This document shows, in pieces, positions 5,340 through 64,000 of a stretch of 64,000 nucleotides of DNA. The translations under genes and the position numbers were made by a program. How positions within the stretch are numbered: position 1 is the stretch's first letter; each line of letters begins with the position of its first letter. Source of the DNA: Verrucomicrobiota bacterium (GTDB lineage: Bacteria > Verrucomicrobiota > Verrucomicrobiia > Limisphaerales > UBA11358). Under the pieces are notes generated by a model. It saw only the letters and a list, made by a program, of their open reading frames with translations. It had not been told where the DNA came from and searched no databases. The stretch lies in the NCBI GenBank assembly GCA_049517655.1, contig JBEKRQ010000001.1, positions 749,379 to 813,378 on the forward strand, written 5' to 3'.

Positions 5340-5388
5340 GGAATTAAAGCCGTTATTGCATCAAATCAAAACGGCTGCAACCCTTTCT

Positions 5389-19110: not shown

Positions 19111-19112
19111 TC
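18980..19112. repeat. 133-bp direct repeat, copy 1 (5' end of the ABC-2 permease gene)
   Basis: Three mismatches versus 21663-21795 by manual alignment. Weaker similarity continues for ~30 bp beyond. Confidence 0.9.
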
Positions 19113-21665: not shown

Positions 21666-21793
21666 ATCGTGCGCCAGAGCGACAGCATGGCGAACAGCGG
21701 GATGAAACCGAACAGCGTTCGCGTCAGGTAATTGAAGCGATACGTCAGGTTGTTTTGAATCCCGATGCCGATGACATGCCAGTATTTTTTCAT
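21641..21793 (-). pseudogene. 5' fragment of the ABC-2 permease gene (duplicate of 18980-19112)
   Basis: Encodes MKKYWHVIGIGIQNNLTYRFNYLTRTLFGFIPLFAMLSLWRTIY, then runs antisense into the end of the propeller gene and stops after 50 codons. Confidence 0.7.
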
Positions 21794-21795
21794 TC
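21663..21795. repeat. 133-bp direct repeat, copy 2
   Basis: Begins exactly at the stop codon of the beta-propeller gene and includes a duplicated permease start codon. Confidence 0.9.
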
Positions 21796-34596: not shown

Positions 34597-36423
34597 CTAT
34601 TTTAAAGTTTCAACTTTAGCTTCCGGCTCGACCCACTTGTTATGTTCCTTGATAAGGTCAACGAGTCGTTCCACAGCTTCGGCTTCGGGGATGTTGAACT
34701 TGATCGCCTGCTTGCCGACGTAAAGGTTGATCTTGCCGGGCGCGCCGCCAACGTATCCGAAGTCGGCATCTGCCATTTCACCCGGGCCGTTCACGATGCA
34801 GCCCATGATGGCGATTTTAACACCCTTGAGATGCTCCGTCCGAGCCTTGATGCGAGCCATCACGGTCTGCAAGTTGAACAGCGTCCGCCCGCACGACGGG
34901 CACACCACGTAATCGGTCTTGAACGAACGGCAGCCCGCTGCCTGCAAAATATTGTAAGCCAGCCGCAGCGATTGTCCGCTGTCGGACTCCCCGCGAATCA
35001 AAATCGCATCGCCAATGCCGTCCGCCAGCAGCGAACCGATTACAACGGACGCGCGCAGCAAGACGATTTTGGGTTCCAGTGGCACAGACCTCTGGTCTGT
35101 GTTCGCCCTTTCATTCACAGGCTGGAAGCCTGTGCCACATAAACAATCCTTGAGTAGAATCGGATTGTTGCGACCAAGTCTCTTCAATTTCGCCACGAGC
35201 AGACGGAATGCAGTAATCGCGGGTAAATTCACACCATCTTTTACAGTCACGAGTTGCGTGTCACTGTTAATGTTGAAATCCTTTGTTGGGTCGAGTTCCG
35301 CAACATTCAAGTCTTCATAGACTGCCTCCGGTTTCACGTCGTCCCTCAGGCGAATCTTCGGAGTAACCTTGTCCCACGTGGCGCGAGTGACGACGACGCG
35401 GATGAGCTGTTCGCCGCCGCACTTGAAATTTTCGCTTGGAGAAATTCCCGGCGTTTTGCGACGCTCGAAGTGGAAGGGGTCGAACGGAAATTCCGAATTC
35501 GGAATTCGGAATTCGGAATTCGACAGTTTGGGAATTTGCGCCAGCAAATCGCGGCAGACCTCGACTTCGCGCGGCGAATCTTCCGTGAGTGAAACTCGGA
35601 TCGTGTCGCCCAACCCGTCGCACAGCAACGAGCCGATGCCGATGGCGGATTTGATGCGGCCGTCCTCGCCCCCGCCCGCCTCGGTCACACCCAGGTGGAT
35701 CGGATAATTCCAGTCCGGCCCTTCCTGTTCCAGCCGCGCGACGAGCAGCCGATAACATTCGATCATCACCTTGGGATTGCTCGCTTTCATCGAGAATTTG
35801 AAGTTGTGGAAATCGTGCATGCGGCAGATGCGGGCGAATTCCAACGCGCTCTCGACCATGCCAAGCGGCGTATCACCGTAACGGTTCATGATGCGGTCGG
35901 AAAGCGAGCCGTGGTTCGTGCCGATGCGCAACGCGCGCTTCAGGCGTTTGCACTCGATGACCAGAGGCGTGAATTTTTCCTCAATGCGCTTTAATTCGGC
36001 GGCGTATTGCCCATCGGTGTATTCCTTGCCGGCAAATTTCTTGGAATCGGCGTAGTTGCCCGGATTGACACGCACGACTTCGACCCATTTCACCGCTTCC
36101 ATCGCCGCCTCCGGTTTGAAATGGATGTCGGCGACGATAGGCACGTTGCAGCCGCGCTTGCGAAGCCCGGCGACAATGTTTTTGAGATTCGCCGCGTCTT
36201 TGACTGTCGGCGCGGTGATGCGGACGATCTGGCAGCCGACGGCGACGAGGTCGAGCGTTTGTTTCACGCACCCGGCGGTGTCCATCGTGTCGCATGTAAT
36301 CATGGACTGTATGACGACCGGATGGTCGCCACCAATGACGATGCCGCCGCGCGCCGGATCGCCGATGACAATTTCGCGGCTCTTCCGCCGCTGATGAAAA
36401 AATGGTGATTCGCAGTAGCGCAT
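34597..36423 (-). CDS. ispG: 4-hydroxy-3-methylbut-2-en-1-yl diphosphate synthase (long-form IspG/GcpE)
   Basis: TIM-barrel N-terminus (VIQSMITCDT) and C-terminal Fe-S motifs CPSCGRT and GCIVNGPGE. Start moved to MRYCESPFF directly after the rseP stop. Two repeat inserts (35079-35138, 35486-35521). Confidence 0.9.
   Translation of the reverse strand: MRYCESPFFHQRRKSREIVIGDPARGGIVIGGDHPVVIQSMITCDTMDTAGCVKQTLDLVAVGCQIVRITAPTVKDAANLKNIVAGLRKRGCNVPIVADIHFKPEAAMEAVKWVEVVRVNPGNYADSKKFAGKEYTDGQYAAELKRIEEKFTPLVIECKRLKRALRIGTNHGSLSDRIMNRYGDTPLGMVESALEFARICRMHDFHNFKFSMKASNPKVMIECYRLLVARLEQEGPDWNYPIHLGVTEAGGGEDGRIKSAIGIGSLLCDGLGDTIRVSLTEDSPREVEVCRDLLAQIPKLSNSEFRIPNSEFPFDPFHFERRKTPGISPSENFKCGGEQLIRVVVTRATWDKVTPKIRLRDDVKPEAVYEDLNVAELDPTKDFNINSDTQLVTVKDGVNLPAITAFRLLVAKLKRLGRNNPILLKDCLCGTGFQPVNERANTDQRSVPLEPKIVLLRASVVIGSLLADGIGDAILIRGESDSGQSLRLAYNILQAAGCRSFKTDYVVCPSCGRTLFNLQTVMARIKARTEHLKGVKIAIMGCIVNGPGEMADADFGYVGGAPGKINLYVGKQAIKFNIPEAEAVERLVDLIKEHNKWVEPEAKVETLK
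35079..35138. repeat. family-C double-hairpin element, 60 bp, in frame inside ispG
   Basis: The reverse complement aligns along its whole length with 12915-12969. Encodes GTGFQPVNERANTDQRSVPL. Confidence 0.9.
35486..35521. repeat. heptamer array GGAATTC x4-5 inside ispG
   Basis: ggaaattc cgaattc ggaattc ggaattc ggaattc, each unit carrying GAATTC. Encodes SNSEFRIPNSEFPF. Confidence 0.9.
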
Positions 36424-36427
36424 GAAA

Positions 36428-37813
36428 TTATCTGGCCGGCACCGGTACAGTTTCTGCGGGTGGCTGGGTTGTTTGTTCGATTTGCACGTTGTTATTGAAC
36501 ATCGCTCGGAACAGTGGAATCCGTTTGATGTCAAAGAACGAGACATAGAGCATGAACGAAATCACGAGCACCGCGAAGCAGGTCGTGGTGTATTCGACGA
36601 ACCTGATGTCCAAAGGCCGGCGGCGGATTTTTTCGATGATTGCCATCAAAATGTGGCCGCCGTCGAGCACGGGAACCGGCAGCAAATTGATAATTGCAAG
36701 GTTGATGTTGAGCAACACAAGAAAACTCAAGGCGAGGCGATAGTCCGCGTTCACATACACGGCAAGAATCGAAAGGATGCCCAATGGGCCGCTCAAATCG
36801 CTCGCTTTCACGCCTGTCTGCCGCGTATGAATGAGGGCCGAGATAACTCCGAAGGTTTGTTTTGTGACTTCCTGAATCTGGACCCACGGCAAAGGACCGG
36901 GCTTTTTCACCTCGTAGACACCTTCACTGAAAACGACGCCGATGCGGGCACGCTCGTTGACCGGGTCGTATTGCGGCGTTACGGTCGTGCTCCTTTTTTC
37001 ATTCTGACGGTTGAACACGATTATACACGGTTTGCCTTCGGATTTGGAAATGACCTCGATCATCCGGTCTCTGCTGGGGACCGGGATTCCATTTACCGAC
37101 AGGATTTTATCGCCACTCATCAAACCAGCCGCCGCTGCGGGCATGCCACTTTCGACGGCACCGACGACTGGATGCTCACGTGGATCGAGATCCAGCCACT
37201 TGCCACCCGCGGGGTTCGCCTTGGCCGTCAGATAGTAGGTTTTCTGTTCACCACTCCGTTTGATGACTACGGGAAAGACATTGGTCTTGGCCGTCATCGT
37301 CTCGAATACAACATCCTGCCAGGATTCCACCGCATGCCCGTTGACTATCACGATACGGTCGCCTTCCGTGATCCCAAGTTTTCCTTCCGGCGAATTCGGA
37401 TTGACTTCGCCAATCACCGACGGGTTTACCAATATGGGCAATCCGACAAAATAAATCACCGTGGCAATGGCGAAGGCGAACACGACGTTCATGAACGGTC
37501 CGGCAAAAGCAACAAGTATTTTGCGCAACGGAGGCGCAGGCGGGACCTTTTCGGTGGACTGACCTTCCAGCGCTTCGGAGGTAATCATTTGCGGCAGCTT
37601 CACAAAACCGCCGGCGGGAATCCAACGCAGCGAATATTCGACGCCGTTGCGCTTCCGACTGCAAATTTTTGGGCCAAACCCGACGGCAAATTCGTCCACT
37701 TTCATTCCCAGCCGGCGCGCGACCCAAAAATGGCCAAACTCATGGACAAAAATGGCCGCGCCAAACAACGCCAACACGGCGGCAATCACGTAAATGATGT
37801 TTAAAATGGTCAT
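36428..37813 (-). CDS. rseP: RIP zinc metalloprotease RseP (M50 with PDZ)
   Basis: Motifs HEFGHF and NLLPVPVLDGGH with PDZ segments between them. Start moved to MTILNIIYV. Confidence 0.9.
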   Translation of the reverse strand: MTILNIIYVIAAVLALFGAAIFVHEFGHFWVARRLGMKVDEFAVGFGPKICSRKRNGVEYSLRWIPAGGFVKLPQMITSEALEGQSTEKVPPAPPLRKILVAFAGPFMNVVFAFAIATVIYFVGLPILVNPSVIGEVNPNSPEGKLGITEGDRIVIVNGHAVESWQDVVFETMTAKTNVFPVVIKRSGEQKTYYLTAKANPAGGKWLDLDPREHPVVGAVESGMPAAAAGLMSGDKILSVNGIPVPSRDRMIEVISKSEGKPCIIVFNRQNEKRSTTVTPQYDPVNERARIGVVFSEGVYEVKKPGPLPWVQIQEVTKQTFGVISALIHTRQTGVKASDLSGPLGILSILAVYVNADYRLALSFLVLLNINLAIINLLPVPVLDGGHILMAIIEKIRRRPLDIRFVEYTTTCFAVLVISFMLYVSFFDIKRIPLFRAMFNNNVQIEQTTQPPAETVPVPAR

Positions 37814-50225: not shown

Positions 50226-50280
50226 GGTAGGGCGCGATGTCCCCATCGCGCCGCGGCGGGCTGAGACAGCCCCCCCTACC
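50226..50280. repeat. family-A element in the PFOR / DHOD-like spacer
   Basis: ggtagggcgcgatgtccccatcgcgccg...cccccctacc. The first 27 nt match the copy at 59047 with one mismatch. Confidence 0.85.
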
Positions 50281-50294
50281 AACTGAAAAAAATT

Positions 50295-53388: not shown

Positions 53389-54453
53389 TCAACAAATCCG
53401 CGGCAGTTGCTCGCCGCTTGGCATGTCGAGGATCCGGTTCACGCCAATCGTGCTTTTTAACGTGACCAGCGGCGAAGCGCTCTCAATGACTTTGCCGATG
53501 GCCGCCACGCCCGCACCTGTCGCGTAGCCGTGCATGATTTGCAATGCGCGCTCCGCGTCCTTTTCCGCGACAAACACGATGAATCGTCCTTCGCACGCAA
53601 CGTGCAACGGGTCGAGTCCCAGCATCTCGCAGGCGGCATGAACGTCTTCGCGCACCGGCACGGCTTTTTCCTCAACGTCAATTTGCAGGTGCGCCGCTTC
53701 GGCAATTTCGTTGAGCGCGCTGGCCAGGCCGCCGCGCGTGAGGTCGCGCAGACAATGAATTTCAATCCCGACTTTAAGCAACTGCAAAACAATTTCGTGA
53801 ACGGGCGCGGAATCACTTTCAATGGCGCTTTCAAATTGCAATCCCTCGCGCATGGCCATGATTGCCATGCCGTGGCGGCCCAAATCGCCATTGACCAAAA
53901 TCACATCGCCGGGTTGCACATTTTGCGGCGCGATTTTTTGGTCATGCTCGATGACGCCGATGCCAGCGGTGTTGATGAACAAACCATCGCCCTTGCCTTT
54001 ATCCACCACTTTCGTATCGCCGGTGATGATCTGCACGCCGCAGCGTTGCGCCGCGTCGCGCATCGAGCAAACAATTTTCCAAAGCGTTTCCATTGGCAGC
54101 CCTTCTTCCAAAATGAACGCCGCACTTAAATAAAGCGGACGCGCGCCGGCCATGGCCAGATCATTGACTGTGCCATGCACGGCCATTGAACCGATGTCTC
54201 CGCCGGGGAAAAATAATGGCCGAACGACATAGGAATCTGTCGTGAATGCGATTCGTTTTCCGGTTAATTCAACGACTGCCGCGTCGTGTTGCGTCTCCAG
54301 AATGGGATTGTGAAACGCAGTCAGAAACATTTTGCCGATGAGCTGGTGCATCAGCCTGCCGCCACCGCCATGCGCGAGCAGGACATGCGGGTATTGCTGA
54401 ATTGGAATGGGGCAAACCGGCGTGAAATCTTTGGCGGAATTTTTCCTGCTCAT
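53389..54453 (-). CDS. hypE: hydrogenase maturation protein HypE
   Basis: PurM-like fold pattern and the C-terminal PRIC signature. Start moved to MSRKNSAKD, overlapping the hypD stop. Confidence 0.9.
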
Positions 54454-55562
54454 ATTGTTTTGCCGGTTTCTGCGGGCACATGCCGGCGATAACGGTAATA
54501 CGCGGCGCACGTCCCTTCGGATGAAACCATCGTCGCACCAAGCGGATGCTCCGGCGTGCAACGTGTGCCGAACATCGGACATTCGTGCGGTTTGATTTTT
54601 CCCTGCAAAACGAGGCCGCTGAGACATTCGGCGGGTTCGTCAACATGACGGTCGGCCAGGCCGAATTTCTTCTCGGCGTCAAACGCGGCATAGGTGTCGT
54701 TCAAACCGAGGCCGCTTTGCGGAATTTCCCCGACACCGCGCCATTTGCGGGGCACGACCTTGAAAACCTTGTGAATCAACTCCTGCGCCGGCTGGTTGCC
54801 TTCGCGGCGCACGGAACGAACGTATTGGTTTTCGACCTCGGCGCGGCCGGATTCGAGTTGCTGCACGACCATCAGCACGCCCTGCAAAATATCGAGCGGC
54901 TCGAAGCCGGTGACGACAATCGGCACGCGATATTTCGCCGCAATGGGGAAATATTCTTCATAACCCATGACGGTGCAAACGTGACCGGCGGCGAGAAAAC
55001 CCTGCACGCGGCAGTTCGGCGACGACAGCAACGCCTTCATCGCGGGCGGCACGAGCACGTGCGAAATGAGCATGGAAAAATTATTCAATCTCTTGTGCGC
55101 GGCCTGGTAAATGGCCATTGCTGTTGCGGGCGCCGTCGTCTCAAACCCGACACCGAAGAAAACGACTTCTTTCTTCGGATTTTCCTGCGCGAGTTTCATC
55201 GCGTCGAGCGGCGAGTAAACAATGCGCACATCGCCGCCTCTGGCTTTGACGCTGAGCAAATCCGTCGTGCTGCCGGGTACGCGCAACATGTCGCCGAATG
55301 AGGTGAAAATGACGTCTGGCCGGGCGGCGATTTCGAGCGCCTTGTCGATGATTTCCAGCGGCGTGACGCAGACCGGACAACCCGGTCCGTGGATGAGCGT
55401 GATTTGTTTGGGCAACAGTTCATCAATGCCGAACTTCACGATGGCGTGCGTCTGGCCGCCGCAAACTTCCATGATGTTCCAGGAACGGGTTGTGATGCGG
55501 TGAATCTCCCGCGCGAATTGCCGCGCGGGTTCCGCGTCACGATATTCATCAAGATATTTCAT
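54450..55562 (-). CDS. hypD: hydrogenase maturation protein HypD
   Basis: Motifs [10 protein letters not shown] and [10 protein letters not shown]; 370 aa. Confidence 0.95.
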
Positions 55563-55571
55563 GGTTTATTT

Positions 55572-55646
55572 GGTGGGGCGAGGCTACTGACGAGCCGTCT
55601 CCGCTTCGCCGCGCTAAGGTCGGCTCGCGAGGACGCTCGCCCCACC
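55572..55646. repeat. family-A variant in the hypC-hypD spacer
   Basis: ggtggggcgag...ctcgccccacc terminal inverted repeats. Confidence 0.85.
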
Positions 55647-55657
55647 GGTTCAAATTG

Positions 55658-55936
55658 TCAGCCGCTTTGTGTAGGAGGAACGCCTGCACCAGTTGTTCCC
55701 AGTTCGCCGAGTTCCTCCATCTCTTTCAAATAATCGAAGACCTTGTGCGCTTCGTCTTCGTCAAGCCGGCTGAGGGCAAAGCCGACGTGGACGATGACGT
55801 AGTCGCCCACTTTCACCTCCGGCACATAGGCCAGACTGACTTCCTTGAGGATGCCGCCAAAGTTGACCTTGCCAATCCGCAACAACGAATCGTTGCCGCT
55901 GATGCTTTCAATTTTTCCTGGGATTGCGAGACACAT
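55658..55936 (-). CDS. hypC: hydrogenase maturation chaperone HypC
   Basis: N-terminal MCLAIPGKI (essential Cys2). 92 aa with a C-terminal extension. Confidence 0.9.
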   Translation of the reverse strand: MCLAIPGKIESISGNDSLLRIGKVNFGGILKEVSLAYVPEVKVGDYVIVHVGFALSRLDEDEAHKVFDYLKEMEELGELGTTGAGVPPTQSG

Positions 55937-55947: not shown

Positions 55948-58488
55948 TTACTCCTTCCTCCGCAAGGCAGCAACGACTTGTCCCAGTGCAATCCCGCCGT
56001 CGTTCGGCGGCACGCGCTGATGCCAATAGGGTCGAAAACCCTCCGCCAGCAAACGCCGCACCGCGCGCTCCGTCAAATAACGATTCTGAAAACAACCACC
56101 GGAAAGCACAACCCGGTTTTGGCCGACGCGTTTTGCAATGGCGATAATGGCCTCGACCAATGCGTTGTGAAATTTTGCGGAAATTTTGCCGACCGAAACA
56201 CCACGCTTAACATCCGCCAAAATGGCTTCAATCATCGGCGACCAATCCAAAATAATTGCGGATTGCGGACCCCGGCTTTGCCGGAGGCTTCGCCGAGGCG
56301 AGTTGTGGATTGCGAATTGGCTGCTAATCCGCAATTCATAAGCTTCCTCGGTTTCAACGCCCTCCAGCGCGAATTCCAGTTCCATCGCCGCCTGACCTTC
56401 AAATCGGATGTGCTGACGAAGATTGGTGAGTGAAGCGACGGCGTCGAAAAGCCGGCCCACACTGGAACAAAGCGGCGAATTCAATTTTTTGGCCAGCATT
56501 GTTTTCAGCGTGGTCATTTCTGCTGCCGAAAAAGCGGTGATTGTTGCCAGTTTTTCCTGTTTAAAAACTTTGTCGCCGGAAATTTCGTAAAGCAGTCCGA
56601 GCGCGGTTCGGCGCGGTTCCTTCACGGCCTTGTCGCCGCCCGGCAGATGGAACGGACGCAAATGCGCGACGCGTTCGATGTTGTTATCGGTGACGATAAA
56701 AAATTCGCCGCCCCAAATCGTGCCGTCCAAACCGTAACCTGTTCCGTCCCACGACACGCCGAGCATGGGCGGCGCGATTTCATTTTCGGCCATGCAGGAC
56801 AGGACGTGGGCGATGTGATGCTGGACGCCGACGTGGCACACTGTGGTGGGGTGCGATGCTCGCCTGGGCGAAGCCTCGCGAAGACCGGTCCCTATCGCGT
56901 CGTCGGCGGGCTGCGGAGAGCCCGCCCTACCTGTCATTTCATTGGCATACTTTGTCGAGAGATAATCCGGATGCAAATCGGCGGCAATGATTTGCGGCTC
57001 GGCCTCGTAAAGCTTTTCGAAATCCGCGATGACATGGCGGAAGGCGGCGTGCGCCTGTTCGGTTTCCAAATCACCGATGTGCTGGCTGATGAAAACCTGA
57101 TTACCGACAGAAAGCGCCACGGTGTTTTTTAAATGAGCGCCAACGGCCAATACAATTGCGGATTGCGGATTGCGGATTGCGGATTTCAGAGTTTTGGTGG
57201 GGCGAGCGTCCCCGCGAGCCGCATTCCGCATTCTGCATTCCACATTCTGCATTTGAATGGGCAGCGGTGCATAACCGCGGGCGCGGCGCAAAACCAATTC
57301 GCGGTCGAGCATCACGCGCACAACCGAATCGTCCACATGCCGGACAATGGGGCGGTTGTGGACCAAAAATAAATCCGCGATGCCGCCGAGACGCTCCAAG
57401 GCTTCATGTTCATCCGTGCAAATCGGCTCATCACTCAGGTTGCCGCTTGTGGCGATGACAGGAAAACCGAGTTCGGTCATCAACAGATGATGCAACGGCG
57501 TGTAAGGCAGCATCACGCCGAGATTAGGATTGCCGGGAGCCACCGAATTTACGATTTGCGATTTGCGATTTGCGATTTTCTTGAGCAGGACGATGGGTGC
57601 TTCGGATGAGTGCAACAGTCGCTTTTCCAAAGGCGAGACTTTGCATTCCACCTTGATGACCTTCAATGAAGGAAACATCAGCGCGAACGGTCTTTCTTCG
57701 CGATGTTTCCGCTCGCGTAAAAGTCGAACTGCTTTGTCGTTGCGGGTATCCGTCATCAGGTGAAACCCGCCGAGTCCCTTGACTGCGACGATTTGTCCCT
57801 GTCGGATGGCTTCGGCAGCAGCGAGCAAAGCGTCGGCATTCTGGAGTGCGCGGACATGTCCGCGCTTTGAAAGCGGCGACACGTCGCCGCATTCCCACAA
57901 TTCCAAATGCGGGCCGCAGACCGGACACGCATTTGGCTGCGCGTGAAAACGGCGGTCGCGCGGGTCATCGTATTCAGCCTGACATTGCGGACACATCGTG
58001 AACTTGCGCATCGAAGTGTTCGCGCGGTCGTAAGGCAGGGATTCAATGATGCTGAAGCGCGGGCCGCAATGGGTGCAATTGGTGAATGGATAACGGTAAC
58101 GACGATTGGCAGGATCAAAAACTTCGTGTAGACAATCCGGACAAGCGGCAATGTCCGGCAAAATCAGCGCGGTTTTGCCGCCGCCGGTTTGACTTTCGCG
58201 GATTTCAAATTTCTTGTAACCGGCGGCGTCAAGCCACGAGCTTTCGAGGCTTTGGATGAAACTGCGCGGCGGTTTCTCGGTGTCGAGACGGAGAAAAAAT
58301 TGTTCGAGCGCGGCGCGCGGACCTTCAACTTCGATGAAAACGCCTTGCGAAGAATTATTGACCCATCCGGAAAGGTGGAGTTCGGCGGCGAGGCGGAAGA
58401 CGAACGGGCGAAAGCCGACGCCCTGCACCGCGCCGCGAACGGAAAGTTTCAGGCGCGTGCATCGGCTGGTTTGGCTGGCTTTGTTCAC
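55948..58488 (-). CDS. hypF: carbamoyltransferase HypF
   Basis: Acylphosphatase domain (VRGAVQGVGFRPFV), two zinc-finger pairs (CPDC..CTHCGPR, CPQC..CPVCGP), and YrdC and Kae1-like domains. 846 aa, including about 100 aa of repeat-derived inserts. Confidence 0.95.
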   Translation of the reverse strand: MNKASQTSRCTRLKLSVRGAVQGVGFRPFVFRLAAELHLSGWVNNSSQGVFIEVEGPRAALEQFFLRLDTEKPPRSFIQSLESSWLDAAGYKKFEIRESQTGGGKTALILPDIAACPDCLHEVFDPANRRYRYPFTNCTHCGPRFSIIESLPYDRANTSMRKFTMCPQCQAEYDDPRDRRFHAQPNACPVCGPHLELWECGDVSPLSKRGHVRALQNADALLAAAEAIRQGQIVAVKGLGGFHLMTDTRNDKAVRLLRERKHREERPFALMFPSLKVIKVECKVSPLEKRLLHSSEAPIVLLKKIANRKSQIVNSVAPGNPNLGVMLPYTPLHHLLMTELGFPVIATSGNLSDEPICTDEHEALERLGGIADLFLVHNRPIVRHVDDSVVRVMLDRELVLRRARGYAPLPIQMQNVECRMRNAARGDARPTKTLKSAIRNPQSAIVLAVGAHLKNTVALSVGNQVFISQHIGDLETEQAHAAFRHVIADFEKLYEAEPQIIAADLHPDYLSTKYANEMTGRAGSPQPADDAIGTGLREASPRRASHPTTVCHVGVQHHIAHVLSCMAENEIAPPMLGVSWDGTGYGLDGTIWGGEFFIVTDNNIERVAHLRPFHLPGGDKAVKEPRRTALGLLYEISGDKVFKQEKLATITAFSAAEMTTLKTMLAKKLNSPLCSSVGRLFDAVASLTNLRQHIRFEGQAAMELEFALEGVETEEAYELRISSQFAIHNSPRRSLRQSRGPQSAIILDWSPMIEAILADVKRGVSVGKISAKFHNALVEAIIAIAKRVGQNRVVLSGGCFQNRYLTERAVRRLLAEGFRPYWHQRVPPNDGGIALGQVVAALRRKE
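56254..56336. repeat. ATTGCGG-type inverted-repeat element inside hypF
   Basis: aattgcggatt (56254-56264) pairs with aatccgcaatt (56326-56336). The core shares ctcgcctNggcgaagcctc with 56858-56878. Encodes ...SSQFAIHNSPRRSLRQSRGPQSAII.... Confidence 0.85.
56845..56931. repeat. family-A element, 87 bp, in frame inside hypF
   Basis: ggtggggtg...cccgccctacc. The reverse complement starts with the same 28 nt as the glnS copy. Encodes [29 protein letters not shown]. Confidence 0.9.
57154..57187. repeat. heptamer array ATTGCGG x4 inside hypF
   Basis: attgcgg units at 57155, 57162, 57169 and 57176. Confidence 0.9.
57196..57220. repeat. family-A half element inside hypF
   Basis: ggtggggcgagcgtccccgcgagcc, matching the left ends of 13434 and 55572. 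Confidence 0.75.
57221..57255. repeat. heptamer array GCATTCY x5 inside hypF
   Basis: gcattcc gcattct gcattcc acattct gcatttg. Confidence 0.85.
57553..57580. repeat. heptamer array GATTTGC x4 inside hypF
   Basis: gatttgc x3 plus gattttc. Encodes KIANRKSQIV. Confidence 0.9.
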
Positions 58489-58585: not shown

Positions 58586-59029
58586 TCAAAATTTGCCGCT
58601 GCGGACGATTTTGACGATTTGTTTCACGACTTCGCGCGCGGCTTGTTCGACTTCCGGGGAAAGGGTTGTGCCAAAATTAAAATCACGGCCGCGGATGCTG
58701 AAAAGGATGGCGCGCGGCTCGCGGCCATGAAGTGTTTTGCACAGCGATAGCACATCAGCCGGAGTCAGATAATGGGCGACGGCGTGGCTTCGGAAACGCG
58801 GTGTGACGACGGTGCGTTGGATTGGCTCCGGCGCTTCGGGAATTGCTGCGTCTACGAAGATGACGGTGTCGAAACGGCTGATGGTCTCGGCAGCTTCGAT
58901 TTCAAGCTGTTGATCGGTCTCCAATTCCACCTCAGGCAGGTTCAGCGCAGCCAGTTGTTCGATGACGAACCAGCCGACGCCGTCGTCGCGACGGCTGCGG
59001 TTGCCATAGCCAATAACAAGGGTTTTCAT
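58586..59029 (-). CDS. hoxW: hydrogenase maturation endopeptidase (HoxW/HycI family)
   Basis: Motif VIGYGNRSRRDDGVG (GxGNxxxxDDGxG); 147 aa; lies between hoxH and hypF. Confidence 0.8.
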   Translation of the reverse strand: MKTLVIGYGNRSRRDDGVGWFVIEQLAALNLPEVELETDQQLEIEAAETISRFDTVIFVDAAIPEAPEPIQRTVVTPRFRSHAVAHYLTPADVLSLCKTLHGREPRAILFSIRGRDFNFGTTLSPEVEQAAREVVKQIVKIVRSGKF

Positions 59030-59046: not shown

Positions 59047-59128
59047 GGTAGGGCGCGATGTCCCTATCGCGCCGTGGCTGGCCGCCGGTTTTCGCACGAG
59101 CGGCGCGCTGGGGACAGCGCGCCCTACC
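59047..59128. repeat. family-A element in the hoxH-hoxW spacer
   Basis: ggtagggcgcgatgtccctatcgcgccg...gggacagcgcgccctacc. Confidence 0.9.
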
Positions 59129-59138: not shown

Positions 59139-60566
59139 TTACGAATTGCGTTGCAGTGTTTGCAACACTTTCCCGTCCGCGTCCACCAGTTCGACGTGTA
59201 TCGGCATCTGGCCCATGGCGTGGGTGGCGCAGCTCAAGCAGGGATCGTAGCAGCGGATGAGCGCCTCGACGCGGTTGAGCATGCCTTCCTTGAGTTTCTT
59301 TGCCTTGACGTATTTCCGTGCAATGGCCTGCACGCCGCGGTTCATCGCCAGGTTGTTATGGCCGGTGGCAACAATCAGGTTGGCTTTCTCAATCCGGCCA
59401 TCGGCGTCCACCCAATAATGATGGATTAACGTGCCACGCGGCGCCTCGATCACGCCCACACCCTCCCGTTGGGTCGGCTGGTTCGGCACCAGAATATCGG
59501 TGCTGGTGATGTCGGGGCTTTCCAGCAACTGCTGCGCGCGTTCCAGTCCGTAAAGTATCTCAATCAACCGCGCCCAGTGATAGTAGAACGAACTGGTCTG
59601 CACACGGCCCTTGGCGCGCCAAACTTTCAACTCCGCGTTGGCCTTCGGTGTCGCAATATGGCTGCAGAGGTTCACGCGCGCGAGCGGTCCCACGCGATAC
59701 ATACCCCGTGGATAACCGAGCTTTGAGATGAATGGGAACTTCATGTAAGACCACGGTTCGACCGCCTCGCTGATGTAATCCAGATATTTCGCCGGTGAAA
59801 TCTGGTCATGCACAATCCCGCCCCTGGCATCACAGAAGCGCAGATTGCCGTCGTATAACTCCAGCGCGCCGTCCGGCTGGACCAGTCCCATGTAGTTGGA
59901 ATCGAAGTTGGCGAAGTCTTCGACTTCCGCAAGATGCTGACGATGGTAGCCCTTGAGCAAATCAAGGGCGAACCGCGCGTGCTCGAACGCTTCGGGCAGA
60001 CCGCGCAGAATTTCGTCGCGTTGCGCCATTGTGAGGACCTTATTCACACCGCCGGGCACCGTGAAGTCCGCATGTATCTTGCGTCCGCCGACCGACTTGA
60101 TCAGTTCCTGGCCGAATTTGCGCAGCCGCACGCCTTTGATTGCAATGTCAGGCTTCAGCTGGATCAGACCGACAATATTGCGGATGGCCGGGTCGGCGTC
60201 GTAGCCGAGCAACAGGTCGGGTGCGCTCAAATGGAAGAAGCTAAGCGCGTGGGATTGGATGACTTGTCCCATGTGTATCAGTTCGCGCAGCATCTTCGCC
60301 GTGCGCGGAATCTCGCGGCCGACGATGACGTCGCAGGCCTTGGCGCTGGCCAGCAAATGGCTGACGGGGCAGATGCCGCAGACGCGCGGCGTGATTTGCG
60401 GCATCTCGGTGAAATGCCGGCCTTCGCAGAACTTCTCAAAACCGCGAAATTCCACGACATGGAAGCGGGCGTCGTCCACCTCGCCGCGGCTGTCGAGATG
60501 GATGGTGATCTTCGCGTGACCTTCGATGCGGGTTACGGGGTTGATGATGATGGTTTTGATCGTCAT
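59139..60566 (-). CDS. hoxH: [NiFe]-hydrogenase large subunit, bidirectional Hox type (group 3-like)
   Basis: RIEGH; N-terminal Ni-binding motif [10 protein letters not shown]; C-terminal [10 protein letters not shown]. Confidence 0.9.
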
Positions 60567-60567: not shown

Positions 60568-61167
60568 TCAGTCGTATCTTAAATTCTTTTCATTCCATTG
60601 CGGCGTGCGGCCAGCCAGCAATTCCGTCAGGACATACCAAATCACGTCCGCATCCGGCGGACAGCCGGGGATACTGAAATCAACCTTCACCACCTCTTGA
60701 AGCGGCCGCGCCTTCGGGCACAGCCCCGGCACGACAGGGTCATTGGGGATGCAACTGATGCGGTTGCTTTCAGCCTGCTCGTAAGCGCGCGCCAGGCAGT
60801 CCTTCAACGGAAACTGATTACGCAGCGCCGGGATGTTGCCTGTGATGGCGCAATCGCCAAGCGCAATGAGAATTTTGCAGCGGTCGCGCAGCATCTTCAG
60901 CTCATGTTCCTGATCGGTGTTGTTCACGCAACCCTCGACAATACCGACGTCCACCTGTGGCATATCCTTTACCTTGGTGTCCACGATTGGGCTGAACAGG
61001 ATGTCAATCAGCTTGAACAAATCCACCAGGCGCTCGTCCAGATCGAGGAATGACATGTGACAACCCGAGCAGCCGCTCAGCCACATTGTCGCCACGCGCA
61101 CCTTGGCGGGAGCCTTTGCAGTCGATACACTTGCTGATTTCTTCGTTGTTTTCCGTGTCTTGTTCAT
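60568..61167 (-). CDS. hoxY: [NiFe]-hydrogenase small subunit HoxY (NuoB-like)
   Basis: Proximal-cluster motif SGCSGCHMS plus further Cys ligands. About 199 aa, as in Hox-type small subunits. Confidence 0.85.
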   Translation of the reverse strand: MNKTRKTTKKSASVSTAKAPAKVRVATMWLSGCSGCHMSFLDLDERLVDLFKLIDILFSPIVDTKVKDMPQVDVGIVEGCVNNTDQEHELKMLRDRCKILIALGDCAITGNIPALRNQFPLKDCLARAYEQAESNRISCIPNDPVVPGLCPKARPLQEVVKVDFSIPGCPPDADVIWYVLTELLAGRTPQWNEKNLRYD

Positions 61168-62987
61168 GCAAATACGTTCTCCAAAATCGCCGCGTCTTCG
61201 CGCGCCTCGCCGCTGACTGGCAGCACGGGCCGCAGAGATAACTTGCGTCCTTCAAAATTGGTAATCGTGCCGGACTTCTCGCACCAGATGGTTGCGGGCA
61301 ACACAATCGCCGCCTTTTCGGTGAGCGCCGAACGGTAACTGGCCTGCACCACCACACAAGGAATTTGCTCCAATAGCTCCGGCACGCGCTCCTCTTCCAG
61401 AATCCGCGCACCGCCATCGGGCGCGTCGCTGGCGATGATGTGCAGGAGTTTCAATGGTTTGGCGTCCAGCCACGGGCCGATGTTTTCAATCGCCCCAATG
61501 CCGGCACCCGCCAAGGCGAGGCTGTTGCTGCTCACCGGCAAGCCGATATGTACGAGTTTCTGGCCGCCCGGATTATTTTCAAAAATCCGGATGAGCCGTT
61601 CCATCACAGTCATGCCGACCGGGGTCGTCGCGTCAAGGCCATACACCAATACGGGTCGTTGCGCGCCTTCGAGCACTTCGGCCACCCGATCCCAGAGTTT
61701 GCCCTCCAAACTGACGGCATGGGCGCAGACATTCGCATACTTGTCGAGGTCGCTTTTGTGCGCGTGGAGTATCAGCAATTTCGCACCGCGCTTGCGGACG
61801 GTGGTTCGGATGCGCGCAGCCACAACCCCATTGTCGCGGGATGGCTGGGCGCCGACGACGATGATGGCGTCTGCGTCTTCCAGGTTCCGCAACGCGTCGG
61901 CGCTAAAAGACGGCTTGTTGCAGAGCGCCGCCTCATTGGCGGCTACATACATACCAATGCGGTCAATCTTGCCGGCGAATTTTTTGATTGTTTGCGCTGT
62001 TTCGTTGGTCACGCGCGGGGCAACAAGCATCGCCATTTCCGCCTTTTGCGCGTCTTTTGCGGCCTTGCGAATGGCGGCAATCGCCTTGTCCCACGTGGTG
62101 GGTTGCAGTTTGCCGTTCTTATCGCGAAGCATCGGTTGGGTGATGCGTTCGCGCGGTTCAGCCCACGTCTCATACCGGCCTTTCACGCAGAGATGGCCGC
62201 GGTTGACGGGCGAATCCGGGTCGCCCCAAACGCTCACGATGCGGTCTTCCTTGACGAACACCTTCAGGCCACAGCCAACCGGACATTCGGTGCATGTTGT
62301 TAAGACCTGCTGGCAACTCGCGAGCGGCCCACGGAACGCGGCGGCCTTGTCAAACAACGCGCCAGTCGGGCAACTGGCAACGCACGCACCGCAAGACGTG
62401 CATGTCTCGGACGCGCCGAATTTCTTCAGCATGTCCACGATGATTAGGTTTTTGATGCCGCGATTGGCGACGTCGAGCGTGTGCACGCCTTCAATCTCAT
62501 CGCAGGTGCGAACGCAGCGCGTGCACAGGATGCAGCGGTTGTGGTCCAGCCCGAAATACCTGCCGGTAAGGTCAACCGGCAACGCCGGGTATAAATACTG
62601 ATACCTGATGCCAGTGATACCGTGGAGGTAACCCTGATGCTGCAGGCCGCAGTCGCCCTTGTTATACGGGCACATCGGGCAGATGTGGTTGCGTTCGCTA
62701 AAAAGCAACTCCAGTGTGGCCTTCCGCAAGTCCTGCAAACGCGGGCTGTTGGTGATGATTTTCGAACCGTTCACCGCCGGTGTGGCGCAAGACGGCACGA
62801 CCTTCGGACTGCCCTCAATTTCAACGATGCACATCCGGCAGCCGCCCCATGCAGTCAGTCCATCCAGATAGCACAGCGTTGGGATGTAAATGCCGTTGGC
62901 ACGGGCGATTTCCAGGATGGTCTGTCCAAGCTCGCCGTTGCAGGCTTTGCCGTTGATGGTGAGGGAAATTTTCTTGGTGGCAATCAT
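61164..62987 (-). CDS. hoxU: diaphorase Fe-S subunit: HoxU-like N-terminus fused to a NuoG/molybdopterin-oxidoreductase-like domain
   Basis: 2Fe-2S region (CYLDGLTAWGGCRMC) and 4Fe-4S motifs (HICPMCPYNKGDC, CILCTRCVRTC, CTSCGACVASCP). These are followed by a CTECPVGCG cluster and about 330 aa of molybdopterin-oxidoreductase-like sequence. Start set at MIATKK, with GGAG 7-8 nt upstream. Confidence 0.75.
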   Translation of the reverse strand: MIATKKISLTINGKACNGELGQTILEIARANGIYIPTLCYLDGLTAWGGCRMCIVEIEGSPKVVPSCATPAVNGSKIITNSPRLQDLRKATLELLFSERNHICPMCPYNKGDCGLQHQGYLHGITGIRYQYLYPALPVDLTGRYFGLDHNRCILCTRCVRTCDEIEGVHTLDVANRGIKNLIIVDMLKKFGASETCTSCGACVASCPTGALFDKAAAFRGPLASCQQVLTTCTECPVGCGLKVFVKEDRIVSVWGDPDSPVNRGHLCVKGRYETWAEPRERITQPMLRDKNGKLQPTTWDKAIAAIRKAAKDAQKAEMAMLVAPRVTNETAQTIKKFAGKIDRIGMYVAANEAALCNKPSFSADALRNLEDADAIIVVGAQPSRDNGVVAARIRTTVRKRGAKLLILHAHKSDLDKYANVCAHAVSLEGKLWDRVAEVLEGAQRPVLVYGLDATTPVGMTVMERLIRIFENNPGGQKLVHIGLPVSSNSLALAGAGIGAIENIGPWLDAKPLKLLHIIASDAPDGGARILEEERVPELLEQIPCVVVQASYRSALTEKAAIVLPATIWCEKSGTITNFEGRKLSLRPVLPVSGEAREDAAILENVFA

Positions 62988-62991
62988 GGTT

Positions 62992-64000
62992 TCACTCCGC
63001 ATCAATGTGACTTCCTTTCGTCGCCGCCGATTTTGACGGTGAAAGGCGCAGATTGCCGCACACACCCGCCACGCAATGGTGCTCGCGGATGTGCTGCTCG
63101 TATTCGTGCCGGAAATACTTCAACGTTGTCAGCACCGGATTCGGCGCCGCCTGGCCGAGACCGCAGAGGCTGGCGTCACGGACGACGACGCAAAGAGCCT
63201 CGAGTTTGTCGAGGTCGGTAAGCTCGCCTTCGCCTCGGCAGATTTTCTCCAGCAGATTCAGCATCTGCTTGGTGCCGACGCGGCAGGGCGGACATTTGCC
63301 GCAGGATTCGTCGCAGCAAAACTCCAGGAAAAACCGGGCGACGTCCACCATGCAGGAATCCTCGTCCATGACAACCATGCCGCCGGAACCCATGATGGAG
63401 CCAAGTTTCTGAAGCGTCTCGTATTCGACCGGGGTGTCGAGATGTTGAGCAGGGATGACTCCCCCGGATGGACCGCCGGTCTGGACGGCCTTGAATTGTT
63501 TGCCGTCAGGAATGCCGCCGCCGATTTCGTAAATGATGTCGCGCAACGATGTGCCAAACGGAACTTCAACCAACCCGGTGTTTTTGATCTTGCCCGCGAG
63601 CGCGAAGACTTTGGTGCCCTTGGTCTTCTCGGTGCCGAATGTGGAATACCACGCGGCGCCTTTGCGGATGATGACCGGTACGGCGGCCCAGGTTTCGACA
63701 TTATTGATGTTGGAGGGTTTGCCCCAAAGGCCGCGTTGTGCCGGGAACGGCGGACGCGGCATCGGTTGGCCGCGCCGGCCTTCGATGGAACGCATGAGCG
63801 CGGTTTCCTCGCCGCAAACGAATGCGCCGGCGCCGATGCGGAGTTCGAGGCCGAAATCGAATCCTTTCTCAAAGAGGTTTTTGCCGAGCAAACCGTGTTC
63901 GTAGGCTTGATTGATGGCGATCTGGAGGCGTTTGATGGCCAGCGGATACTCGGCGCGGATGTAAATGAACCCGCGGTTGGCGCCCATCGCGTAACCGCCG
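62992..64000 (-). CDS. hoxF: NAD(P)H-binding diaphorase subunit HoxF (NuoF-like), 5' end outside the window
   Basis: Motifs [19 protein letters not shown] and [10 protein letters not shown]. The reading frame stays open to the window edge. Confidence 0.85.

What the first reader, a model, noticed from the sequence alone, without database searches (positions are those of the whole stretch)
55948..58488. HypF is a mosaic carrying at least four separate repeat-derived in-frame insertions (~100 aa)
Four insertion sites lie inside the hypF ORF.
1. 56254-56336: an element with 11-bp inverted repeats built from ATTGCGG units.
2. 56845-56931: an 87-bp family-A element.
3. 57154-57255: a composite of an ATTGCGG x4 array, a family-A half element and a GCATTCY x5 array.
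4. 57553-57580: a GATTTGC x4 array.
Together they encode about 100 residues of low-complexity peptide, for example KSAIRNPQSAI, IQMQNVECRMRNAARGDARPTK and KIANRKSQIV. Removing them brings the 846-aa protein down to the ~750 aa I recall for typical HypF. The frame is preserved every time, although the 7-bp unit is not a multiple of 3. That implies selection for a functional maturase while the gene keeps receiving repeats.
Basis: partly seen in the sequence, partly recalled or inferred. Interest (0 to 1): 0.75.

Follow-up and report, generated by a model that had tools for sequence, protein, structure and literature searches.

The report
Repeat DNA translated inside hypF
The hydrogenase-maturation gene hypF of an uncultured Verrucomicrobiota bacterium stays intact while carrying five stretches of the genome's own repeat DNA, translated as about 80 net extra residues in variable segments, a known kind of event made unusual by 7-base repeat arrays.

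Summary
hypF (55948-58488, minus strand, 846 aa) is a complete HypF with all five domains.

It carries five repeat-derived tracts, not four.
- Two tracts are GTAG/GTGG-tagged REP palindrome doublets.
- Three are built on arrays of about 4.5 copies of a 7-nt unit. Two of these have inverted arms.
- One array tract has a REP half in its centre.
- A 30-33-nt element is nested inside two tracts.

Outgroup HypFs lack all these segments. Close relatives (74-84% identity) have empty, differently filled or larger versions of the same sites. The net gain is about 80 aa, and about 100 aa are repeat-encoded.

The core is under purifying selection (dN/dS 0.10-0.14). The same 846-aa length recurs on about 90 contigs, so this is not an assembly artefact. 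No slippage-type variation was seen.

In-frame REPs are already known from Opitutus terrae and from Rickettsia palindromic elements. GlnRS, aconitase and IspG in this window carry them too.

Three points are less ordinary. Repeat tracts are about 11-fold denser in hypF. The arrays evolve in concert between species. Shared tracts are 95% identical in DNA against 63% at third codon positions.

The parts
55948..58488 (-). hypF coding sequence, 846 aa. It is a complete carbamoyltransferase HypF: acylphosphatase, 2 x HypF zinc finger, YrdC-like and Kae1-like domains.
   Evidence: E = 5e-191 to 3VTH. Core dN/dS is 0.10-0.14 against relatives.
57838..57892 (-). It is a double-palindrome repeat between the zinc fingers and the YrdC domain, with a net gain of 27 nt.
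   Evidence: It is absent in L002 and L003 and in outgroups. Its DNA fold has z = -3.4. A near-identical element lies outside hypF on IMG/VR contig L043, with more divergent copies sharing the same 18-nt palindrome on L042 and L045. At least six other REP doublet families occupy this loop in relatives. AlphaFold pLDDT is below 50 for aa 199-217.
57547..57580 (-). Site B (aa ~304-313, KIANRKSQIV). It is a heptamer array, (AAATCGC)x4.6 on the sense strand, in a loop of the YrdC domain. The net gain is 0-2 aa.
   Evidence: The array is in register in relatives, with other units (AAGTCCA, AATCGGC, AAATCCG and others). It has no fold potential.
57154..57255 (-). Site C (aa ~411-445), in the YrdC to Kae1 linker. 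It is a composite: left array (GGAATGC)x5, then a REP half, then AAAACTCTG, then right array (AATCCGC)x4.4. The net gain is about 25 aa.
   Evidence: L001-L003 have only the right array and 63 nt are missing. Searches show the same architecture at sites C and E of other species.
57196..57220 (-). GTGG-tagged REP half (GGCTCGCGGGGACGCTCGCCCCACC on the sense strand) at the centre of site C. It encodes ARGDARPT.
   Evidence: The same unit forms intergenic doublets at 55572-55646 and 13434-13483.
56845..56931 (-). Site D (aa ~520-552) inside the first Kae1-like subdomain. It is a GTAG/GTGG REP doublet encoding [15 protein letters not shown]...SHPT. The net gain is about 28 aa.
   Evidence: arm 56904-56931 is 100% complementary to 8300-8327; the compact doublet is present in L001 and L003, and the site is empty in L002. 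pLDDT is below 50 for aa 521-548 within a confident domain.
56859..56888 (+). A 30-nt element (CTCGCCTGGGCGAAGCCTCGCGAAGACCGG) nested in the second REP of site D. It encodes GLREASPRRA.
   Evidence: Absent in L001 and L003, which have the intact REP. It belongs to the same family as 56270-56302.
56254..56336 (-). Site E (aa ~722-745) in the second Kae1-like subdomain. It is an element with 11-nt terminal inverted repeats made of ATTGCGG units. The net gain is about 17 aa.
   Evidence: Its DNA fold has z = -3.1. pLDDT is below 50 for aa 724-742, between two confident strands.
56270..56302 (-). A 33-nt element (sense strand CTCGCCTCGGCGAAGCCTCCGGCAAAGCCGGGG) nested in the array of site E. It encodes SPRRSLRQSRG.
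   Evidence: Absent in L001. Present in L002 with 30 of 33 bases identical.
55572..55646 (.). REPIN-like doublet of the GTGG REP in the hypD-hypC spacer. It is the extragenic form of the unit found inside site C.
   Evidence: Fold z = -2.8. It is present at the same spacer in L001, L009, L014, L016 and L027.
59047..59128 (.). REPIN-like doublet of the GTAG REP between the hydrogenase protease gene and hoxH. It is the extragenic form of the family found in site D.
   Evidence: Fold energy -35.4 kcal/mol, z = -5.9.

Best explanation
hypF of this uncultured Verrucomicrobiota bacterium (closest relatives labelled Limisphaerales or Verrucomicrobiia) has taken up short dispersed repeat DNA of its own genome at five variable loop or linker positions (two between domains, three within them). 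The ribosome reads straight through it.

Three kinds of repeat are involved:
1. GTAG/GTGG-tagged REP palindromes, mostly as inverted doublets like REPINs (sites A and D, and the centre of site C).
2. Arrays of about 4.5 copies of a 7-nt unit, alone or as two roughly inverted arms around a variable centre (sites B, C and E).
3. A 30-33-nt element nested inside two of the others.

Each tract is translated into a hydrophilic segment rich in Arg, Ser, Ala, Gln and Pro. Three of them (A, D, E) coincide with low-confidence stretches of the structure model and are probably disordered.

Shown here:
- The tracts are repeats.
- They are absent from outgroups, and present, absent or replaced among close relatives.
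- They lie at alignment gaps, two between Pfam domains and three within them.
- The rest of the protein is under purifying selection.
- The tracts are fixed in the species.

Inferred, not shown:
- REP units are inserted by a RAYT-type transposase or by recombination between copies.
- The heptamer arrays are kept uniform by gene conversion or by slippage with no net length change.
- Selection removes every variant that shifts the frame or disturbs the fold, so only in-frame tracts in tolerant loops remain.
- The protein is an active maturase whose extra loops are tolerated rather than needed.
For: Anatomy and repeat nature.

Absence in outgroups and in solved HypFs.

Empty or alternative states at DNA level in relatives with about 80% nucleotide identity. 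At least seven different palindromic doublet families, several of them GTAG- or GTGG-tagged, occupy site A across the clade (the window's type plus six others). L002, L003 and L016 keep the ancestral 16-residue loop.

The same families occur outside hypF:
- REP doublets at 8300, 13434, 50226, 55572 and 59047.
- The site A element on IMG/VR contigs.
- Hairpins with heptamer-array stems in the tig-HD spacer of L051 and L052, and in tandem in L050.

Other housekeeping genes of the window carry the same repeats in frame:
- Gln[22 protein letters not shown], lying in a stretch of about 50 aa that is missing from 5BNZ.
- Aconitase, +5 aa.
- IspG.

Function retained:
- Five Pfam domains.
- Invariant VQHHxAH and NDGG motifs.
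- Core dN/dS 0.10-0.14, against 0.45-0.69 in the site windows.
- Intact hypE-D-C and hox neighbours.

Not an artefact: the same 846-aa length on 28 + 58 + further contigs.

Disorder: low pLDDT exactly at aa 199-217, 521-548 and 724-742.

Precedent: intragenic GTAG REPs are most numerous in Opitutus terrae. Their dimers encode 20-30 aa and a GTGG variant exists (PMC3733652). RPEs in Rickettsia are the other precedent (PMC10969869).
Against: No RAYT or other transposase is encoded in the 64-kb window. The mobilising agent is therefore unidentified.

The 30-33-nt nested element was not found outside hypF in the sequence held. Its status as a dispersed repeat is unproven.

The composite with a REP centre and array arms was seen only inside hypF: 9 of 9 copies there, 0 of 10 REP copies elsewhere. 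That fits intragenic copying between sites C and E as well as it fits transposition.

Shared tracts are much more conserved in DNA than neutral sites: 211 of 223 bases against 63% at third codon positions. Pure 'junk in a loop' does not predict this.

Repeat tracts are about 11-fold denser in hypF than in the rest of the window. Heptamer arrays are 11.6-fold denser in hypF than in 580 kb of flanks of relatives. Loop tolerance alone does not explain this.

The structure model is poor outside the Kae1 domain (mean pLDDT 57.9). Surface exposure of sites B and C is therefore inferred from alignment gaps only.
Confidence: 0.78

Rival explanations
1. The tracts, above all the heptamer arrays and hairpins, are kept because they do something at the DNA or RNA level in the hyp operon. 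Candidate roles are mRNA stability, translational pausing between domains, a protein-binding site, or service as flexible linkers. On this view they are maintained by selection, not merely tolerated.
For: Shared tracts are islands of 89-100% DNA identity in a gene whose third codon positions are 61-66% identical. The peaks stop at the tract borders (P = 7e-9).

Arrays stay near-perfect in every species although dS between species is 0.45-0.9.

Arrays are 11.6-fold enriched in hypF. They also recur at the hypF-hypC junction, and as inverted pairs about 1.4 kb downstream in many relatives.

In cyanobacteria, 7-bp STRR repeats that form hairpins sit between hupS and hupL and upstream of hoxW. They have been proposed to affect transcript stability or translational coupling (PMC2670836).
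Against: The unit sequence changes freely between lineages at the same site, so no fixed sequence motif is conserved.

Site B has no folding potential, and sites C and D do not fold better than shuffled sequence (z = +1.1, -1.5 and -1.0).

Several close relatives have empty site A or D, or only the simple array at site C, and still have an intact hypF.

There is no Rfam match and no terminator-like excess.

High identity can also come from gene conversion against conserved genomic copies.
Confidence: 0.2
2. The heptamer arrays at sites B, C (right arm) and E were never inserted. They arose where they are, by slippage and amplification of native linker codons, and have since evolved in concert. 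Only the REP-type parts are true insertions.
For: The arrays are in register and of constant length at each site across about 30 species: 57, 60 and 54 nt in the simple state.

The net gain at site B is 0-2 aa.

A more distant relative (L024, 64% identity) has a decayed remnant with a 21-nt period at site B.

At site C the array starts inside the conserved I-T-L codons.
Against: Arrays of the same narrow size (22-37 nt, median 31) and related units occur at many unrelated places. These include other genes, spacers and other taxa. That points to a shared generating process, not three local accidents.

Sites C and E often carry the same unit within one genome while differing between genomes.

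Slippage by single units would break the frame.
Confidence: 0.3
3. The 7-nt arrays make hypF a phase-variable contingency gene. Gain or loss of one unit would switch the frame and turn hydrogenase maturation off and on, as in NeuO.
For: A 7-nt unit in a coding region changes the frame with every single-unit slip. NeuO of E. coli K1 works this way with AAGACTC repeats (PMC3046976). There are three arrays in one gene.
Against: There is no length difference at any array among the members of the 90% cluster, which stand for about 90 contigs.

The broken hypF copies in L025, L036, L040 and L041 are interrupted by scattered 1-nt indels away from the arrays, in assemblies named MFD, which are probably long-read assemblies (my inference from the contig names).

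The arrays are short, 4-5 units, and of the same length in almost all species. Known switches vary widely; NeuO ranges from 2 to 93 copies.
Confidence: 0.03
4. The tracts are assembly or binning artefacts, that is, repeats wrongly joined into the gene.
For: Short dispersed repeats are a classic cause of misassembly, and the window comes from a metagenome-derived genome.
Against: The identical protein is on 28 contigs and a variant that differs only in how the start codon is written is on 58, from NCBI, ENA and JGI sources. All eight full-length cluster members are 846 aa.

Relatives from independent projects carry homologous tracts at the same codons.

Every tract keeps the frame.
Confidence: 0.01

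Closest known systems
Intragenic GTAG-tagged REPs (REP / REPIN / BIME type) as described for Opitutus terrae, Verrucomicrobia (Di Nocera et al. 2013, PMC3733652)
   Same: The tracts share the defining anatomy: a short palindrome preceded by GTAG, or by GTGG as in O. terrae family GTAG-20. They form inverted doublets with short spacers. They are mostly extragenic, but many copies lie in frame inside housekeeping ORFs. Doublets encode 20-30 aa. Some ORFs are hit twice. The phylum is the same.
   Different: Here five tracts of three kinds sit in one gene, with one element nested in another. The same loop is occupied by several different REP families in related species. No RAYT gene could be tied to them. 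Identity with the published O. terrae families was not tested, because their consensus sequences are in a figure that is not held.
Rickettsia palindromic elements (RPE; Ogata et al. 2000, cited through PMC10969869)
   Same: Both are selfish palindromic repeats inserted in frame into unrelated metabolic genes. Both are translated and are judged compatible with the fold and function of the host protein.
   Different: RPEs are about 150 bp, belong to an obligate intracellular alphaproteobacterium, and usually occur once per gene. The tracts here are 28-102 nt, more varied, and partly tandem arrays.
Cyanobacterial STRR (short tandemly repeated repetitive) heptanucleotide sequences (PMC2670836; the original description by Mazel et al. 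1990 is recalled from memory)
   Same: Both have 7-nt units in short tandem arrays and several unit sequences per genome. Both can form hairpins through inverted arrays. Both are repeatedly noted in hydrogenase gene clusters (hupS-hupL spacer, upstream of hoxW). In both cases the function and the generating mechanism are unknown.
   Different: STRRs are described as intergenic and cyanobacterial. Here the arrays are in Verrucomicrobiota, lie inside an ORF and are translated. They are very uniform in size, about 4.5 copies. No homology between the two was tested.
NeuO poly-psi motif of E. coli K1 (PMC3046976)
   Same: A heptanucleotide array lies inside a coding region and is read in all three phases. 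Three units give one 7-residue heptad. The resulting hydrophilic segment is disordered in the crystal.
   Different: NeuO has 2-93 copies, is highly variable within the species and acts as an on/off switch. The hypF arrays have 4-5 copies, are fixed within the species and show no slippage variants.

Membership tests
HypF carbamoyltransferase ([NiFe]-hydrogenase maturation) | N-terminal acylphosphatase domain | tested here: met
   PF00708, E = 1.2e-22, aa 14-96.
HypF carbamoyltransferase ([NiFe]-hydrogenase maturation) | Two HypF zinc-finger motifs | tested here: met
   PF07503, two stretches, E = 8e-33. The cysteines are invariant in 51 relatives.
HypF carbamoyltransferase ([NiFe]-hydrogenase maturation) | A YrdC-like domain and a Kae1-like domain carrying the VQHHxAH and NDGG motifs | tested here: met
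   PF01300, PF17788 and PF22521. Aligned over the full length to 3VTH, E = 5e-191. The motifs are invariant.
HypF carbamoyltransferase ([NiFe]-hydrogenase maturation) | Clustered with the other hyp genes and a [NiFe] hydrogenase | tested here: met
   HypE-like, HypD and HypC lie downstream. A protease, the NiFe large subunit and the small subunit lie upstream.
HypF carbamoyltransferase ([NiFe]-hydrogenase maturation) | Carbamoyl transfer activity | not testable with these tools
   Only inferred, from core dN/dS of 0.10-0.14.
GTAG-tagged REP / REPIN | A 20-40-nt imperfect palindrome able to form a stem-loop | tested here: met
   GGGCGGGCT-CTCCGC-AGCCCGCC and similar units. The doublets fold with z = -2.8 to -5.9.
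GTAG-tagged REP / REPIN | An unpaired GTAG tag (or the GTGG variant) at one end | tested here: met
   G-GTAG-GGCGGGC at 8300, 50226, 59047 and 56931 (reverse complement). G-GTGG-GGCGAGC at 13434, 55572 and 57196. The site A families of relatives begin with GTAG or GTGG. The window's own site A element has no clear tag.
GTAG-tagged REP / REPIN | Many dispersed copies, mostly extragenic, often as inverted doublets | tested here: met
   At least six doublets in 64 kb. Four are intergenic, one is in GlnRS and one is in hypF.
GTAG-tagged REP / REPIN | An associated RAYT (Y1 transposase) gene flanked by the same REPs | tested here: inconclusive
   No Y1_Tnp hit in any of the 48 window ORFs scanned. 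The window is only a small part of the genome.
In-frame selfish repeat of the RPE type | The same repeat family is present at unrelated loci | tested here: met
   Met for the REP families and the site A element and for heptamer arrays and hairpins. Not shown for the 30-33-nt nested element.
In-frame selfish repeat of the RPE type | The orthologous site is empty in relatives | tested here: met
In-frame selfish repeat of the RPE type | The insert lies on the protein surface or in a loop and does not disturb the fold | tested here: inconclusive
   All five tracts fall at alignment gaps against 3VTH, two between Pfam domains and three within them. A, D and E are low-pLDDT stretches. The model is too poor for B and C.
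Phase-variable simple-sequence contingency locus | Repeat number varies within the species and switches the frame | tested here: not met
   No array-length variants in the cluster. Frame breaks in relatives are not at arrays.
Cyanobacterial STRR | Short tandem arrays of a 7-nt unit, with several unit types per genome | tested here: met
Cyanobacterial STRR | Intergenic location in heterocystous or filamentous cyanobacteria | tested here: not met
   The lineage is Verrucomicrobiota. Five of the eight arrays that Tandem Repeats Finder lists in the window at score 30 or more are inside ORFs with a Pfam-supported identity, counting the site E array at 56255-56269.

The most novel reading that the evidence does not exclude
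The arrays of about 31 nt made of 7-nt units, and the hairpins built from two inverted arrays, may be a distinct and undescribed class of bacterial repeat in Verrucomicrobiota and some other taxa, a counterpart of cyanobacterial STRRs.

On this reading they are actively rewritten or homogenised. Arrays stay perfect within a genome, whole arrays change unit between lineages without changing length, and different sites in one genome share a unit.

They would also be preferentially kept in the hyp operon, including inside hypF, because they act on the DNA or mRNA of the hydrogenase-maturation genes.
Probability: 0.2. Interest if true: 0.7.

Novelty: new variant of a known kind. Interest (0 to 1): 0.5.

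Why it matters
This locus shows how much selfish or neutral repeat DNA a working multi-domain enzyme can absorb. Five tracts add about 80 net residues, with elements nested in elements, while purifying selection still acts on the core.

It offers a natural map of positions in HypF that accept inserts. That is useful for engineering the maturase.

It gives a clade-wide series in which the same loops are empty, filled or refilled by different repeat families.

The heptamer arrays raise a concrete and testable question. Something keeps a translated 7-nt array perfect over divergences where synonymous sites are half saturated, and it is not known what. It is also not known why such arrays gather in hydrogenase gene clusters in both cyanobacteria and Verrucomicrobiota.

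For annotation, repeat-encoded peptides such as [17 protein letters not shown] and KSEIRNP should not be read as domains.

Tried and rejected
1. Structure model. AlphaFold2 on the 51-sequence alignment gave mean pLDDT 57.9. Only the Kae1 domain is reliable, so it supports sites A, D and E but not B and C. I did not run fold search on such a model.

2. Phase variation. No array-length variants in the species cluster. Frame breaks in four relatives are scattered 1-nt indels in assemblies named MFD, which I take to be long-read assemblies. Rejected.

3. Recombination tracts as the cause of the high tract identity. Sliding identity drops right at the tract borders. Rejected as the sole cause.

4. 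The 30-33-nt nested element as a dispersed repeat.
- It was not found outside hypF in the window or in 760 kb of loci.
- Its 19-mer hits on IMG/VR contigs are unrelated sequences.
- Unresolved. I ran no further search on it, because hits would be swamped by hypF copies of this abundant species.

5. Profile search with the composite peptide.
- A doubled profile returned only short ORFs and HypF fragments.
- It showed that array hairpins are widespread but could not count host protein families.

6. A RAYT transposase. None among all 48 window ORFs.

7. Rfam and the terminator scan found nothing beyond chance.

8. Literature. No paper in the held library links heptanucleotide repeats with Verrucomicrobia.

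Full report
**The gene and its setting**

The ORF 55948-58488 on the minus strand encodes 846 aa. It has all five Pfam domains of HypF: acylphosphatase aa 14-96, two HypF zinc fingers, YrdC-like aa 226-402, and Kae1-like aa 444-568 and 577-837. It aligns end to end with the solved HypF of Caldanaerobacter (3VTH, E = 5e-191).

It sits in a hydrogenase cluster:
- hypE-like, 53389-54627
- hypD, 54450-55562
- hypC, 55658-55936
- hypF
- a maturation protease (weak match to 5TTX), 58586-59029
- NiFe large subunit, 59139-60566
- small subunit, 60568-61167
- a diaphorase-type subunit, 61164-63065

The identical protein is known as 'MAG: carbamoyltransferase HypF [Verrucomicrobiota bacterium]'. The nearest relatives are labelled Limisphaerales or Verrucomicrobiia.

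**Checking the observation**

Against 3VTH, the alignment opens gaps in the reference at query aa ~203-216, 306-311, 415-441, 521-552 and 722-745. That is five places, not four.

The extra one, site A (57838-57892), is a double palindrome: GGCGACGTGTCGCC-GCTTTCAAAGC-GCGGACATGTCCGC. It encodes CGDVSPLSKRGHVRALQ. A near-identical element lies outside hypF on IMG/VR contig L043, and more divergent copies sharing the same 18-nt palindrome lie on L042 and L045, so it is a dispersed repeat.

**What the tracts are**

It is a short palindrome preceded by GTAG or GTGG, usually found as an inverted doublet.
- Extragenic doublets lie at 13434-13483, 50226-50285, 55572-55646 and 59047-59128.
- Another doublet lies in frame inside GlnRS at 8300-8360.
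- The intergenic doublets and the GlnRS copy fold far better than shuffled sequence, z = -2.8 to -5.9.

Site D (56845-56931) is such a doublet. A 30-nt element is nested in its second arm.

Site C (57154-57255) has three parts: a left heptamer array, one REP half (57196-57220) and a right heptamer array. The two arrays are inverted copies of each other apart from one mismatch per unit.

Site E (56254-56336) is a pair of inverted ATTGCGG-type arms. A 33-nt element of the same family as the 30-nt one is nested in it, in the opposite orientation.

Site B (57547-57580) is a plain array, (AAATCGC)x4.6 on the sense strand.

**Comparison with relatives**

I aligned 50 database relatives (74-84% identity, 789-953 aa). 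The alignment swells to 1165 columns because of hot spots at these same five places. There are two further places that are empty in the window: a 54-aa insert at site B and a 14-aa insert near aa 645.

I then fetched 38 genomic loci from species-representative genomes and three loci through exact protein look-up.

Residues in fixed windows around each site:

| Site | Outgroup HypFs (45-64% identity) | Window |
|---|---|---|
| A | 15-20 (mostly 16) | 25 |
| B | 12-24 | 16 |
| C | 12-16 | 39 |
| D | 9-13 | 39 |
| E | 11-21 | 32 |

The net gain is therefore about 9 + 1 + 25 + 28 + 17 = 80 aa. Subtracting it gives 766 aa, inside the outgroup range of 733-800.

At DNA level the empty or simpler states are clear:
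- Site A is empty in L002 and L003.
- At site C, L001-L003 have only the right array, and 63 nt are missing.
- Site D is empty in L002 and is a compact doublet in L001 and L003.
- The nested 30 and 33 nt are absent in L001.

Site A is occupied in different species by at least seven different palindromic doublet families, several of them GTAG- or GTGG-tagged. L002, L003, L016 and the outgroups keep the ancestral loop.

**Is the gene functional, and are the tracts real?**

The core evolves with dN/dS of 0.10-0.14 against seven relatives. The site windows run at 0.45-0.69. The catalytic motifs are invariant.

The exact protein is on 28 contigs and a variant that differs only in how the start codon is written is on 58. 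All eight full-length members of the 90% cluster are 846 aa, with no difference at any array. One further member is 836 aa, with a 10-aa gap in a conserved stretch and not in a repeat tract.

AlphaFold2 was poor overall (mean pLDDT 57.9). In the well-modelled Kae1 domain, the only low-confidence stretches are aa 521-548 and 724-742. Residues 199-217 are also low. These are tracts D, E and A.

The tracts are enriched in Arg, Ser, Gln and Asn and depleted in Leu and Val. 22 of their 30 reading frames are stop-free, so being open is easy. The real filter is length and tolerance.

**The phenomenon is genome-wide and has precedent**

In the same window:
- GlnRS carries [20 protein letters not shown], lying in a stretch of about 50 aa that is missing from 5BNZ.
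- Aconitase carries an AGAGTTG array, +5 aa against IRP1.
- IspG carries an AATTCGG array and a palindrome.

Di Nocera et al. 2013 reported that intragenic GTAG REPs are most numerous in Opitutus terrae, a verrucomicrobium. They described a GTGG variant, dimers encoding 20-30 aa, and some ORFs hit twice (PMC3733652). Rickettsia palindromic elements are the classic case (PMC10969869).

So the core of the finding is a new and unusually dense instance of a known kind.

**What is less ordinary: the heptamer arrays**

In 825 kb of loci plus the window, period 7 (91 arrays) and period 14 (27) dominate all tandem repeats. The arrays are 22-37 nt long with a single exception of 56 nt, with a median of 31 and about 4.5 copies. 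They are absent from seven of the nine outgroup loci; L028 and L030 have one each.

They are 11.6 times denser in hypF than in 580 kb of flanks. In the window alone the enrichment is 24-fold for arrays and 11-fold for all tracts (P = 3e-4 and 1e-4).

At sites B, C and E the arrays are in register and of constant length across some 30 species. The unit, however, differs between lineages by substitutions carried through every copy. At site C the units are TCCGCAA, TCCGAAA, TCCGAAC, TCCAAAG and CCTCAAC. Each species' array remains nearly perfect. This is concerted evolution without length change.

Sites C and E often share a unit within one genome.

A more distant relative, L024, has a decayed remnant at site B.

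Where the window and L001 share a tract, 211 of 223 bases are identical. The core is 81% identical and third codon positions 63% (P = 7e-9). The identity peaks end at the tract borders.

Hairpins whose stems are inverted heptamer arrays also occur in spacers of other genomes: L051 and L052 between tig and an HD gene, and L050 in tandem. The version with a REP half in the centre was seen only in hypF, 9 of 9 copies.

Cyanobacterial STRRs are 7-bp repeats that form hairpins and have been noted between hupS and hupL and upstream of hoxW (PMC2670836). NeuO shows that a translated heptanucleotide array gives a disordered heptad segment (PMC3046976).

**Rivals tested**

- Phase variation is not supported. 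There are no array-length variants. The broken hypF copies of L025, L036, L040 and L041 carry scattered 1-nt indels away from the arrays.
- There is no Rfam family and no terminator excess.
- No RAYT gene is present in the window.
- A role for the arrays at the nucleic-acid level remains possible. It is the main open point.

**Verdict**

- There is a fifth site.
- The net gain is about 80 aa, not 100.
- Site 4 is not a net insertion.
- The arrays are ancient and evolve in concert.

The kind is known. The density, the nesting, the hot-spot behaviour and the conserved, homogenised heptamer arrays make it a variant worth a closer look.

Noticed in passing
window 7916-9742 (+), repeat at 8300-8360: The glutaminyl-tRNA synthetase gene carries a GTAG REP doublet in frame ([20 protein letters not shown], aa 129-149). 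It lies within a stretch of about 50 aa that is missing from the solved GlnRS 5BNZ and from E. coli GlnRS.
   Followed up: partly
window 94-3000 (-), array at 2382-2411: The aconitase gene has an (AGAGTTG)x4.3 array read in frame as [10 protein letters not shown]. That is 5 residues more than human IRP1 at that loop.
   Followed up: partly
window 34597-36546 (-), 35489-35522 and 35114-35138: IspG (GcpE) has an (AATTCGG)x4.9 array translated as SNSEFRIPNSEF. It also has a palindrome, TTCACAGGCTGGAAGCCTGTGCCAC, translated as CGTGFQPVN. Both lie in the large insert between its two conserved parts.
   Followed up: partly
window 55572-55646; L001 ~6700-6747, L009, L014, L016, L027: The REP doublet in the hypC-hypD spacer is present at the same spacer in several species that are about 75-84% identical in HypF. 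It is therefore an old, retained extragenic copy.
   Followed up: partly
L006 12419-12448, L011 9845-9876, L012, L013, L016, L020, L025, L036, L040 (hypF stop to hypC start): Many relatives have a further (AAATCGT/AAATCAA) array exactly at the hypF-hypC junction. They also have inverted array pairs (AACATCG / TTCGATG) about 1.4 kb downstream. The window has neither.
   Followed up: no
L014, L017, L020, L033, L022 at site B of hypF: A much larger in-frame insert of about 160 nt (LVRPHPGPLPQERGN...SLSPGERARVRAS) occupies site B in several relatives, giving HypFs of about 870-950 aa.
   Followed up: no
L030 (labelled Candidatus Manganitrophaceae), L050, L051/L052: Heptamer arrays of the same unit family (TCCGCAA, AAATCCG) and array-stem hairpins occur on contigs labelled as other taxa, or of unknown taxon. 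Either the repeat class is wider than Limisphaerales or these contigs are misbinned.
   Followed up: partly
window 18980-19112 and 21663-21795: A 133-nt direct repeat, 98% identical, flanks the 800-aa ORF 19263-21665. It contains the 5' end of a minus-strand gene (MKKYWHVIGIGIQNN...). This suggests a duplication created when the large gene was inserted.
   Followed up: partly
window 5387-5686 vs 6090-6389; 14703-15002 vs 16983-17282: There are two pairs of 300-nt direct repeats (82% and 76% identical). One is an internal duplication in ORF 5414-6553. The other links two neighbouring thioredoxin-like (redoxin) genes.
   Followed up: no
L040, L041, L025, L036 (hypF): hypF is broken by several 1-nt indels in four assemblies named MFD, most likely sequencing error. 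The closest species-representative genome (L041, 84%) is therefore unusable for codon-level comparison.
   Followed up: yes
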